Below are positions 1-413 of a DNA stretch of 1,159 bases, piece by piece. The position numbers and the translations under genes were made by a program. Every line of letters begins with the position of its first letter. Within the stretch, counting starts at the first letter, position 1. A model generated the notes under the pieces. The model saw only the letters and a list, made by a program, of their open reading frames with translations, was not told the origin of the DNA and ran no database searches. Source of the DNA: Escherichia coli (GTDB lineage Bacteria > Pseudomonadota > Gammaproteobacteria > Enterobacterales > Enterobacteriaceae); NCBI RefSeq assembly GCF_003334385.1, contig NZ_QOWN01000124.1; one strand, 5' to 3'.

Positions 1-413
1 TACGCCCGCCAGAGTCCGCCCTGGTGTGTGGCATACGTGCCCCGGGGAAAGGATTTTTGATCGTCAATGGCGGGGAGTATTTCCAGTGCCGTGGCATCAC
101 GCCCGTCCTGCGGAGCCGGCAGGGCACTCACCGCATCCAGAACCGCCTTCTGCAGAACATCCGGATCGTAGTCACGACCGTCGCGCGGAACAGGAATATG
201 GCTTACCGCCTCCTTCACCATCTGCTCAAGCATCGGACGCATATCATCGCCCGTCACGCACTTCTGTAATACCACAGACAGGGACGCCAGTTTTTCTTCA
301 AACGTTTGTGCCTGCGCGGCTATTTTCCCCTCAAATGTGCGCTGTAAATCCGCCAGCACTGCGGAAAATTCTTCACCCAGCGCACGGATAATGGACAGTT
401 CACGTTCATTCAT
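1..413 (-). CDS. Phage head-morphogenesis gene of unknown function, 5' portion (3' end lies beyond position 1); candidate scaffold or assembly protein, translationally coupled to portal
   Basis: The minus-strand frame whose codons occupy 3-5 ... 411-413 has no TTA, CTA or TCA on the plus strand anywhere in 1..409, so it is open for 137 codons to the window edge; the other two minus frames hold 5 and 9 stops. The first start is ATG at 413..411, preceded in frame by a stop at 452..450. Translation begins MNERELSIIRALGEEFSAVLADLQRTFEGKIAAQAQTFEEKLASLSVVLQK and ends ...GTYATHQGGLWRA. Composition is protein-like. Function is inferred only from position after the portal gene. Confidence 0.7.
   Translation of the reverse strand, partial: MNERELSIIRALGEEFSAVLADLQRTFEGKIAAQAQTFEEKLASLSVVLQKCVTGDDMRPMLEQMVKEAVSHIPVPRDGRDYDPDVLQKAVLDAVSALPAPQDGRDATALEILPAIDDQKSFPRGTYATHQGGLWRA

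What the first reader, a model, noticed from the sequence alone, without database searches (positions are those of the whole stretch)
1..413. Gene after the portal has an unusual product: heptad-like N-terminus plus tandem P-x-P-x-D-G-R-D motifs
In HK97-type head modules the gene after the portal is usually the prohead protease or a scaffold. This product instead starts with an amphipathic, Ala/Leu/Glu-rich segment (residues 3-51) that contains an imperfect 11-residue repeat, TFEGKIA (codons 318..338) and TFEEKLA (codons 285..305). It is followed by two copies of P-x-P-x-D-G-R-D, PVPRDGRD (171..194) and PAPQDGRD (96..119), exactly 25 residues apart. I do not recognise this combination as any canonical protease, scaffold or Mu F-like family. 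It may be an undescribed assembly or decoration protein, or the N-terminal domain of a fusion protein whose remainder is outside the window.
Basis: partly seen in the sequence, partly recalled or inferred. Interest (0 to 1): 0.55.

Follow-up and report, generated by a model that had tools for sequence, protein, structure and literature searches.

The report
Portal-partner fibre protein of Stx prophages
The gene after the portal in this E. coli Shiga-toxin-type prophage encodes the start of a common but unstudied fibre-like protein with a sugar-binding tip; it always sits next to the portal gene and is sometimes fused to it, and databases wrongly call it a "portal protein".

Summary
The minus-strand ORF starting at 413 (ATGA overlap with the portal stop) gives a 47-residue helix, then two half-repeats that each end in P-x-P-x-D-G-R-D. 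The half-repeat match beats all 2000 shuffles.

The window is 96-99% identical to long-tailed Stx/O157 lambdoid prophages (BP-4795, 2851, Lys8385Vzw). No protease or scaffold is missing: a protease-capsid fusion gene lies upstream of the portal.

The full protein ("X") is 245 aa in the closest one-unit relative. It has three parts:
- an N-terminal helix;
- one to five copies of a 54-residue unit;
- a conserved ~140-residue beta domain ending in a CBM5/12-like module.

The family is large (5702 representatives at 50% identity). It has no convincing Pfam or NCBIfam match and no solved structure. Half of the top representatives carry collagen-type Gly-X-Y runs, so a trimeric fibre is likely.

Homologues follow a portal gene in 69 of 71 related loci and in 4-5 of 5 distant ones. 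In phage 2851 and many E. coli genomes one extra G (G6 instead of G5) fuses X to the portal C-terminus.

Best reading: a portal-bound, probably trimeric fibre with a glycan-binding tip. Whether it lies inside or outside the capsid is unresolved. It is an uncharacterised variant of known kinds.

The parts
410..1159 (-). C-terminal 249 codons plus the stop (TGA, 412-410) of an HK97-type portal protein. The gene runs off the window at 1159.
   Evidence: Translation. PHROG 2271/12 'portal protein' and TIGR01537 portal_HK97 (E 9e-105) on full-length relatives. 94-99% identical portals in prophages.
425..429 (-). G5 run (AGGGGGA on the minus strand). It is the Shine-Dalgarno-like element for gene X, 11 nt upstream of its ATG. 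It is also the site of the G5/G6 polymorphism that decides whether portal and X are separate or one fused ORF.
   Evidence: Junction sequences. The window, BP-4795 and Lys8385Vzw have G5 (two genes). E. coli 88-3493 and phage 2851 have G6 (single 861/859-aa ORF). Every distant homologue also has an SD-like motif upstream of X.
410..413 (-). ATGA overlap: the X start codon ATG (413-411) overlaps the portal stop TGA (412-410). This arrangement is typical of translational coupling.
   Evidence: The same 4-nt overlap occurs in L002, L004, L012 and L014. Distant loci show overlaps of 8-14 nt or gaps of 4-17 nt.
3..413 (-). Gene X, first 137 codons. The full length is 245 aa in the closest one-unit relative. 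The gene runs off the window at position 1.
   Evidence: Full-length relatives are L002:6025-6762 (245 aa), L004:3747-5132 (461 aa) and the fused L003:2386-4971. X maps to PHROG 1289.
261..407 (-). N-terminal amphipathic helix, residues 3-51. It contains the 11-residue repeat TFEGKIA (318-338) / TFEEKLA (285-305). It is the presumed portal-docking or oligomerisation helix.
   Evidence: AF2 predicts a helix over residues 3-49 at pLDDT 90-96. Hydrophobic period is 3.67. This is the end that is joined to the portal C-terminus in fused variants. Its sequence is poorly conserved, 29-50%.
96..248 (-). One copy of the 54-residue (162-nt) shaft unit, residues 56-106. It has two half-repeats, each a short amphipathic helix ending in [IL]P-x-P-x-D-G-R-D: half A at 171-248 (PVPRDGRD, 171-194) and half B at 96-170 (PAPQDGRD, 96-119).
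   Evidence: Self-alignment statistics. TRF finds 4.6 copies of a 162-nt unit in BP-4795. Close relatives carry 1-5 copies. AF2 predicts helices 55-71 and 84-96. In homologues the motif merges into collagen-like G-X-Y runs.
3..95 (-). First 31 residues (107-137) of the conserved ~140-residue C-terminal beta domain (ATALEILPAIDDQKSFPRGTYATHQGGLWRA...). The CBM5/12-like end of this domain lies outside the window.
   Evidence: Nearly invariant columns D106, A107, P114, I116, K120, Y122, R124, G125, H130, G132, G133, W135 in 62 sequences. pLDDT is 95-98 across most of the domain. It corresponds to PHROG 16748.

Best explanation
Gene X encodes a portal-partner fibre protein.

Shown:
- X starts inside the portal stop codon (ATGA) and has its own Shine-Dalgarno-like G-run.
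- X has three parts: an N-terminal 47-residue amphipathic helix; a shaft of 1-5 units of 54 residues (two short amphipathic helices, each capped by [IL]PxPxDG[RK][DS]); and a conserved ~140-residue beta domain whose last ~45 residues have a CBM5/12 (chitin-binding type) fold.
- X homologues lie between the portal gene and the head-tail adaptor gene in almost every locus examined.
- In at least two separate lineages X is fused in frame to the portal C-terminus.

Inferred:
- X is made together with the portal, in low copy number, by translational coupling.
- Its N-terminal helix docks on the C-terminal tail or crown of the portal dodecamer. This is the junction that is covalent in the fused forms.
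- Three chains assemble into a segmented coiled-coil / collagen-like shaft, which would give about four trimers per portal.
- The tip binds a conserved glycan such as a GlcNAc-type polymer or peptidoglycan.
- In every solved portal I know of, the C-terminus faces the capsid lumen. I therefore slightly favour an internal, portal-tethered position (about 45%), analogous in place to SPP1 gp7 / Mu F proteins or the P22 portal barrel. An external neck or collar fibre gets about 35%, and an assembly-only factor removed at maturation about 15%.
For: Anatomy and statistics.

CBM5/12-like end:
- Pfam PF02839, E 0.0026.
- Family profile against PDB chitinase and chitin-deacetylase CBMs, E about 1e-3.
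- Foldseek local superpositions of 1.1-2.9 A over 45-49 residues.

Fibre character:
- 71 of 150 family representatives carry at least 4 consecutive G-X-Y triplets, up to 57. The motif just before the C-domain reads xKDGxDGRDA across the family.
- BFVD structural neighbours are phage 'collagen triple helix repeat' / CBM proteins.
- The C-terminal region is related to tail-fibre PHROG 5073, E down to 2e-12.

Portal association:
- A portal gene lies directly upstream in 69 of 71 IMG/VR loci, and an adaptor directly downstream in 78 of 78.
- Four of five distant metagenomic homologues follow a recognisable portal gene; in the fifth (L008) the upstream gene is cut at the contig end and unidentified.
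- The same order holds in the isolated phages Salmonella FSL SP-016 and Rhizobium RHph_X2_26.
- In-frame portal-X fusions: E. coli 88-3493, 861 aa; phage 2851, 859 aa; and an unrelated 1237-aa metagenomic protein, P0200.
- Start/stop overlap and an SD-like motif occur in most loci.

Conservation: between distant loci the C-domain is 52-57% identical. That matches or exceeds capsid and portal (43-48%) and is far above the adaptor (27-33%). It argues for a conserved partner or ligand rather than a fast-evolving host-range determinant.
Against: - No experimental or structural data place X in the virion. Literature searches found nothing on it.
- The trimer is inferred only from collagen-like relatives. 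The window variant has just one or two G-X-Y triplets, and only a monomer was modelled.
- Collagen/coiled-coil fibres with CBM tips are external in the characterised phages I know of. That clashes with the luminal position implied by a portal C-terminal fusion.
- The CBM sequence match is weak, and sugar binding is untested.
- Fusions are rare across the family (2 of 150 representatives).
- The N-terminal helix, my proposed docking element, is poorly conserved in sequence.
Confidence: 0.6

Rival explanations
1. X is an external neck or collar fibre (whisker-like adhesin). It attaches outside the capsid at the portal/adaptor junction and uses its CBM tip for reversible binding to surface glycans or mucus. 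The portal-fused forms would be tolerated oddities or defective prophage alleles.
For: - The coiled-coil / collagen / CBM5/12 architecture and its structural neighbours are those of tail fibres and external fibres.
- Shaft length varies freely among near-identical phages, from 1 to 5 units, and reaches 57 collagen triplets in relatives.
- The gene sits at the head-neck boundary, next to the Ad1 adaptor gene.
- The separate (G5) form is the majority among deposited phage records, 53 of 60 sampled.
Against: - In solved portals the C-terminus lies in the capsid lumen (established knowledge, from memory). An in-frame C-terminal fusion, seen in phage 2851, in roughly 70% of the matching E. coli records sampled, and independently in P0200, is hard to reconcile with an outside location.
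- The tip domain is more conserved than the portal itself, unlike typical receptor-binding tips.
Confidence: 0.35
2. X is an assembly-only factor: a portal-tethered nucleator or scaffold adaptor. It would recruit the protease-capsid fusion protein to the portal during prohead assembly, then be cleaved or expelled at maturation, so it would be absent from mature virions.
For: - The N-terminal part and shaft are acidic and helical in 99% of the family members tested, like many scaffolding proteins.
- X co-occurs strictly with one particular head module, in which the S78 protease and capsid genes precede the portal.
- The C-domain is about as conserved as capsid and portal, as expected for a protein-protein partner.
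- Fusion to the luminal end of the portal is compatible with this role.
Against: - A well-folded beta domain with a CBM5/12 fold, and long collagen rods in relatives, are not features of known scaffolds.
- The capsid gene already carries a protease and linker region that normally supplies scaffold function.
- No cleavage site or any other evidence of processing was found.
Confidence: 0.15
3. A portal-X fusion is made from the unfused (G5) allele by programmed -1 ribosomal frameshifting. The slip would occur at the A-run just before the portal stop or at the G-run, so a few portal subunits would carry the fibre.
For: - The window has an SD-like AGGGGG, a 6-nt spacer, an A6 run and then TGA. The X frame is -1 and stays open for 12 codons upstream of its ATG.
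- A hairpin downstream of the junction folds at -27.3 kcal/mol, z -2.5.
- Natural G6 alleles show that the fusion product is tolerated.
Against: - The A6 run is not conserved in close relatives (CGAAAATGA in Lys8385Vzw, ACAAAATGA in SP-016).
- Distant homologues put X in the other frame or after a gap, with no shared slippery site.
- SD + A-rich spacer + ATGA is simply the normal context of a translationally coupled start.
- The hairpin signal is weak (3 of 200 shuffles fold as well).
Confidence: 0.05
4. The repeats are chance or low-complexity sequence, and the ORF is a non-functional remnant in a decaying prophage.
For: Many copies lie in cryptic O157 prophages. At least one close relative (L001, strain PV15-279) carries a frameshift inside the CBM region of X.
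Against: - The repeat statistics exclude chance.
- The family has 5702 representatives at 50% identity, with invariant residues.
- AF2 gives pLDDT 89.9.
- Synteny is strict.
- Members occur in isolated phages.
Confidence: 0.02

Closest known systems
SPP1 gp7 / Mu F-like minor head proteins (Pfam Phage_Mu_F). These are portal-bound internal head proteins encoded just after the portal gene and often fused to it (from memory).
   Same: - The gene lies immediately downstream of the portal.
- Expression looks low-copy and coupled to the portal.
- In-frame fusion to the portal C-terminus recurs in different lineages.
- A portal-associated location is therefore implied.
   Different: No sequence or fold relationship was found: no Phage_Mu_F hit in Pfam and none in the PDB searches. 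X is a repeat-built fibre with a CBM5/12 tip, not the alpha/beta Mu F domain. In X the conserved part is the C-terminus, not the N-terminus.
Phage fibre proteins with a collagen-like or segmented coiled-coil shaft and a CBM5/12 tip (tail-fibre PHROG 5073; Agrobacterium phage 7-7-1 and Milano fibre proteins; cyanophage A-1(L) tail fibre). From memory, T4 fibritin and the phi29 gp8.5 head fibre, built of helix-turn-helix repeats, are architectural analogues.
   Same: - Modular plan: N-terminal anchor, repetitive shaft of variable length, C-terminal globular tip.
- Collagen G-X-Y runs in half of the family representatives.
- CBM5/12 fold at the tip.
   Different: - X is encoded in the head module beside the portal, not in the tail or baseplate module.
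- X is fused to the portal in some phages.
- The tip is highly conserved rather than hypervariable.
- The helix-[IL]PxPxDGxD repeat has no Pfam family.
- The beta subdomain before the CBM (residues ~110-188) has no convincing match in the PDB.
- The PDB fold searches returned neither fibritin nor gp8.5.
CBM family 5/12 chitin-binding modules of bacterial chitinases and chitin deacetylases (Serratia ChiB, Streptomyces ChiC, Vibrio COD)
   Same: The last ~45 residues share the small beta fold and the Y-x-x-G-D-x-V-x-x-x-G-x-x-W ... P ... W pattern.
   Different: Sequence-level significance is marginal. There is no catalytic domain attached. The ligand is unknown, and the module could serve protein-protein contacts here.
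HK97-type portal protein (PF04860 / TIGR01537), the name under which X is filed in RefSeq, GenBank and PHROGs
   Same: Only adjacency, plus occasional covalent fusion to a true portal.
   Different: X has no portal domain. TIGR01537 covers residues 45-388 of the 861-aa fusion and nothing of the X part. The 'portal protein' label on PHROG 1289 and on stand-alone X proteins was propagated from the fused forms.

Membership tests
PHROG 1289 / PHROG 16748 (the uncharacterised family to which X belongs) | Full-length match to the family profiles | tested here: met
   phrog_1289 E 2.7e-141 and phrog_16748 E 3.1e-97 for the 245-aa relative. All distant homologues tested also map to phrog_1289.
CBM family 5/12 (PF02839) | Sequence match to the Pfam model above its threshold | tested here: inconclusive
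   i-Evalue 0.0026 over residues 195-217, model positions 3-29 of 44, and 0.006 in BP-4795 ORF59. Both are partial and sub-threshold. The family profile against PDB CBMs gives E 9e-4 to 1e-2. This region lies outside the window.
CBM family 5/12 (PF02839) | Small three-stranded beta fold with exposed aromatic residues | tested here: met
CBM family 5/12 (PF02839) | Binding of chitin or another GlcNAc-type glycan | not testable with these tools
   Needs a binding assay.
Collagen-like triple-helix proteins (PF01391) | An uninterrupted run of many G-X-Y triplets | tested here: not met
   The window protein has only isolated G-R-D triplets within PxPxDGRD. By contrast, 71 of 150 family representatives have at least 4 triplets, up to 57, and P0186 carries a Pfam Collagen hit.
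SPP1 gp7 / Mu F minor head proteins (PF04233) | Phage_Mu_F domain | tested here: not met
   No hit in the Pfam scans of the 245-aa and 461-aa proteins.
SPP1 gp7 / Mu F minor head proteins (PF04233) | Gene directly after the portal, with occasional portal fusion | tested here: met
   Synteny: 69 of 71 related loci and 4-5 of 5 distant ones. Fusions.
HK97 prohead protease (S78) or scaffolding protein | Peptidase_S78 / proheadase_HK97 domain, or a delta/scaffold region, in this gene | tested here: not met
   X has no such hit. The protease domain is in the 645-aa protease-capsid fusion encoded upstream of the portal (TIGR01543, NF045541, phrog_80).
HK97-type portal protein (PF04860 / TIGR01537) | Portal domain | tested here: not met
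   In the 861-aa fusion TIGR01537 matches residues 45-388 only. Stand-alone X has no NCBIfam hit.
Programmed -1 frameshift cassette (dnaX or lambda G/GT type) | Slippery heptamer conserved among relatives, in a constant frame relation | tested here: not met
   The A6 run is present in the window and BP-4795 but is A4 in Lys8385Vzw and SP-016. Distant loci use the other frame or have intergenic gaps.
Trimeric phage fibres (T4 fibritin, phi29 gp8.5) | Homotrimeric segmented coiled coil | not testable with these tools
   Only a monomer could be modelled. The trimer is inferred from collagen-bearing relatives. The PDB fold searches did not return fibritin or gp8.5.

The most novel reading that the evidence does not exclude
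X could be a previously unrecognised kind of capsid-internal component. Four trimeric coiled-coil / collagen-like fibres would be tethered to the luminal crown of the portal, covalently in the G6 alleles. Each would end in a conserved CBM5/12-type domain that either organises the packaged DNA or leaves through the tail to grip peptidoglycan during infection. A single-base change in a G-tract would switch the fibre between free and portal-fused forms.
Probability: 0.25. Interest if true: 0.75.

Novelty: new variant of a known kind. Interest (0 to 1): 0.5.

Why it matters
- The gene is present in over a thousand complete E. coli genomes, often in many copies per EHEC genome, and in most long-tailed Shiga-toxin phages. 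It is nevertheless annotated as 'portal protein', 'hypothetical' or 'frameshifted pseudogene'.
- Recognising it as a separate family corrects a widespread annotation error. The family has about 5700 clusters at 50% identity and no convincing Pfam or NCBIfam match.
- It defines a testable virion component at the portal vertex of Stx phages.
- If the fibre is internal, it would be a new type of portal-bound core or ejection protein.
- If the fibre is external, it would be a neck fibre with a conserved glycan-binding tip, which could affect how Stx phages adsorb or persist in the gut.
- The natural G5/G6 alleles are ready-made genetic material for comparing fused and unfused portals.

Tried and rejected
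- **Protease, scaffold or Mu F identity.** No profile hits. The protease-capsid fusion is the gene upstream of the portal.
- **Faint precomputed Pfam hits** (QatB PF28083, TetR_C_35, DUF4244) and NCBIfam V-ATPase subunit E. All are far below threshold, fall on helical repeats, and are treated as spurious.
- **Pfam family for the helix-PxPxDG repeat.** None was found, even in a homologue with many repeats.
- **Sequence search of all PDB chains**, with one sequence and with a 62-sequence profile. Only CBM modules were found and no virion structure contains the family.
- **Programmed frameshifting at the A6 or G5 run.** There is no conserved slippery site, and the downstream hairpin is only z -2.5.
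- **Other N-terminal domains in longer family members.** None; all extra length is coiled coil, repeats or collagen.
- **Literature.** Searches on BP-4795 ORF59, PF28083, portal + CBM, portal + collagen + head fibre, phage 2851 and FSL SP-016 found no functional or proteomic data on X. The phage 2851 paper could not be opened.
- **phi330 record.** It has several broken frames, so it was not used as evidence for a fused allele.
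Full report
**1. What is in the window**

Both genes lie on the minus strand. Positions 1159-410 encode the last 249 residues of a protein ending ...AVKAMFRGILKK*. Positions 413-3 encode 137 residues of a second protein with no stop. Its ATG (413-411) overlaps the first gene's TGA (412-410).

- PVPRDGRD at nt 171-194.
- PAPQDGRD at nt 96-119, 25 residues further on.
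- TFEGKIA at nt 318-338.
- TFEEKLA at nt 285-305.

The two half-repeats, MLEQMVKEAVSHIPVPRDGRD and VLQKAVLDAVSALPAPQDGRD, align with a score of 61. Shuffled sequences give 17.3 +/- 3.7, and 0 of 2000 reach 61. The N-terminal 11-residue repeat is weaker, with 16 of 2000 shuffles matching it. The hydrophobic moment of residues 3-51 peaks at 3.67 residues per turn (an 11/3 hendecad pattern), not at 3.5.

**2. Where the window comes from, and the gene order**

The window is 96-99% identical to prophages in 1246 of 5426 complete E. coli genomes, with up to 22 matching places per genome. It also matches 92 deposited phage records, nearly all long-tailed Stx-converting phages such as BP-4795, 2851, 1717, YYZ-2008 and Lys8385Vzw.

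The annotated gene order is as follows:

| Position | Gene |
|---|---|
| 1 | terS |
| 2 | terL |
| 3 | 645-aa protein with an HK97-type S78 protease at the N-terminus and an HK97 capsid protein at the C-terminus |
| 4 | 73-aa ORF |
| 5 | portal (454 aa; TIGR01537 E 9e-105) |
| 6 | X |
| 7 | Ad1 head-tail adaptor |
| 8 | head closure protein |
| 9 | gp10-like protein |
| 10 | tail completion protein |
| 11 | major tail protein |

That does not apply here. The protease-capsid fusion gene lies upstream of the portal.

**3. The full-length protein**

Relatives give the part missing from the window. X is 245 aa in Lys8385Vzw (96% identical) and 461 aa in BP-4795 (ORF59, annotated 'hypothetical protein').

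The length difference is a tandem array of a 162-nt / 54-residue unit. BP-4795 has 4.6 copies at 95% identity. The window has one copy, and strain PV15-279 has two. In strain 88-3493 the match spans 487 nt more than the window, which is three extra units plus one base.

Each unit holds two short amphipathic helices, each followed by [IL]P-x-P-x-D-G-[RK]-[DS]. After the array comes a ~140-residue domain, of which the window holds the first 31 residues.

An AlphaFold2 model of the 245-aa protein, built with 62 diverse homologues, has mean pLDDT 89.9. It predicts:
- helix 3-49;
- helices 55-71 and 84-96, separated by the PxPxDGRD loops;
- a beta domain over residues ~110-238 at pLDDT 95-98.

**4. 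Family**

X maps to PHROG 1289, and its C-domain maps to PHROG 16748, which has unknown function. PHROG 2271 is the portal-X fusion.

NCBIfam has nothing for X. Pfam gives only a sub-threshold CBM_5_12 hit at E 0.0026. The precomputed 'QatB', 'TetR_C_35' and 'DUF4244' hits are marked faint, fall on helical repeats, and I treat them as spurious.

An exhaustive HMMER search of 1.84 billion cluster representatives found 5702 proteins at E <= 1e-3 and 465 at E <= 1e-30. Named members come from E. coli, Shigella, Klebsiella and Pantoea. Salmonella phage FSL SP-016 and Rhizobium phage RHph_X2_26 also carry the gene.

The plan is constant across the family: an N-terminal helix, a variable repetitive shaft, and the conserved C-domain. 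The shaft varies in type:
- helix-IPxPxDGxD units, up to ~18 motif copies;
- helix-LPEPEPLPDI units;
- true collagen.

Of the 150 best representatives, 71 have at least 4 consecutive G-X-Y triplets, and the longest run is 57. The residues just before the C-domain read ...KDGxDGRDA across the family. This is the main reason to think the protein is a homotrimeric fibre.

**5. The C-terminal domain**

- A 62-sequence profile hits the CBM5/12 modules of chitinases and chitin deacetylases, and a module of the Anabaena contractile-injection-system protein All3316, at E about 1e-3.
- Foldseek superposes the last ~45 residues on those modules at 1.1-2.9 A.
- In BFVD the neighbours are phage proteins annotated as collagen triple helix repeat or CBM5/12.
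- PHROG 5073 ('tail fiber protein') matches the C-terminal region of several homologues, down to E 2e-12.

**6. Link to the portal**

Synteny is strict:
- Among 80 IMG/VR loci, 69 of 71 with enough upstream sequence have a portal gene ending at or just before X.
- In the same set, 78 of 78 have the Ad1 adaptor gene directly after X.
- Of five much more distant metagenomic homologues (40-57% identity), four follow a recognisable portal gene. In the fifth, L008, the upstream gene is cut by the contig end and could not be identified.
- The two isolated phages FSL SP-016 and RHph_X2_26 show the same order.
- X overlaps the portal stop by 4-14 nt or follows it within 17 nt, and an SD-like motif precedes its start in every locus examined.

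X is also sometimes fused to the portal:
- E. coli 88-3493 has a single 861-aa ORF.
- Phage 2851 has a single 859-aa ORF with no internal stop.
- The only change at the junction is G6 instead of G5 in the run AGGGGG(G)AT, 16-17 nt before the portal stop. This run is also the SD-like motif of X.
- In a sample of 60 phage records, 7 are G6 and 53 are G5.
- In a spread sample of 40 E. coli genome records, about 29 have at least one ungapped G6 copy, including EDL933 and ST131 strains. That sample is biased towards G6, because the query was the G6 form and only the best place per record is listed.
- An unrelated 1237-aa metagenomic protein, P0200, is an independent portal-X fusion. Its portal part is 48% identical to the E. 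coli portal.
- Across the family, fusions are rare: 2 of 150 representatives.

RefSeq names the fusion 'phage portal protein' and flags unfused copies as frameshifted pseudogenes. The 'portal protein' label on stand-alone X was propagated from the fusion, not earned by homology.

**7. Interpretation**

Established here:
- X is a conserved, modular, fibre-like protein.
- It has a CBM5/12-type end.
- Its gene is coupled to the portal gene.
- It is covalently joined to the portal C-terminus in some lineages.

Inferred:
- The N-terminal helix docks on the portal C-terminal tail.
- Three chains form the shaft, so a portal dodecamer could hold four fibres.
- The tip binds a conserved ligand.

Between distant loci the C-domain is 52-57% identical. 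Capsid and portal are 43-48% identical, and the adaptor is 27-33%. That is unlike a fast-evolving host-range determinant.

The topology is unresolved. Fibre proteins with CBM tips are normally external. However, the portal C-terminus is luminal in solved portals (my knowledge, not tested here). Fusion therefore points to an internal position, like SPP1 gp7 / Mu F proteins or the P22 barrel.

My estimates:

| Reading | Likelihood |
|---|---|
| Internal, portal-tethered | about 45% |
| External neck or collar fibre | about 35% |
| Assembly-only factor | about 15% |

**8. Frameshifting**

The window junction looks superficially like a -1 frameshift cassette. It has AGGGGG, a 6-nt spacer, AAAAAA and then TGA. 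The X frame is open for 12 codons upstream of its ATG. A downstream hairpin folds at -27.3 kcal/mol (z -2.5).

The A-run is not conserved even in close relatives, and distant loci use a different frame or a gap. I rate this reading at about 5%.

**9. Novelty and score**

The gene itself is abundant in databases but is mislabelled and uncharacterised. No paper in the searchable library deals with it.

It combines two known themes. One is the portal-adjacent minor protein that is sometimes fused to the portal. The other is the coiled-coil / collagen fibre with a CBM tip. The combination has not been described, and the repeat type has no Pfam model. I class it as a new variant of a known kind, with interest 0.5.

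Noticed in passing
window 425-429 (C5 on the + strand, G5 on the coding strand); compare L003 and L013: A single-base length difference in this homopolymer (G5 or G6) decides whether portal and X are two genes or one ~860-aa ORF. Both alleles are common in E. coli genomes. The same run is the Shine-Dalgarno-like motif for X.
   Followed up: partly
window 413-418 (A6 run), with the stop codon at 410-412: AAAAAA lies immediately before the portal TGA, with the X ATG in the -1 frame. This resembles a slippery site. It is shortened to A4 in Lys8385Vzw and SP-016, so it is probably just start-codon context.
   Followed up: yes
window ~337-403, minus strand: A predicted RNA hairpin starts 9 nt after the junction. 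It folds at -27.3 kcal/mol, z -2.5, and 3 of 200 shuffles fold as well. Conservation was not tested.
   Followed up: partly
L001 (NZ_AP018488.1) 5386-7645: RefSeq annotates portal + X as one 'frameshifted' portal pseudogene. Besides the G5 junction, this copy has a real frameshift inside the CBM region of X (...TVTWGARCGTATV*). Some O157 prophage copies of X are therefore decaying.
   Followed up: partly
L002 4497-4718 (outside the window, upstream of the portal): A conserved 73-aa ORF (PHROG 829, unknown function) lies between the capsid and portal genes and overlaps the portal start by 55 nt. Similar small ORFs occur at the same place in the distant locus L005.
   Followed up: no
L007 5294-8186 and L010 1473-2006: In two metagenomic contigs, genes with faint or weak hits to MptE-like, hexapeptide acyltransferase and methyltransferase families sit among the head-tail genes, close to the X homologue. 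This hints at a modification function, possibly of sugars.
   Followed up: no
L015 (Escherichia phage vB_EcoS_phi330, PV189401.1) 1182-3924: The portal-X region of this deposited phage genome is split into several short ORFs. This suggests homopolymer sequencing errors, so it was not used as evidence.
   Followed up: no
one search hit list (Klebsiella proteins P0080, P0086 and others): Stand-alone 402-aa X homologues in Klebsiella are named 'phage gp6-like head-tail connector protein', 'phage portal protein' or 'Carbohydrate binding domain'. The sequences have no connector domain. This is another propagated mis-annotation.
   Followed up: partly
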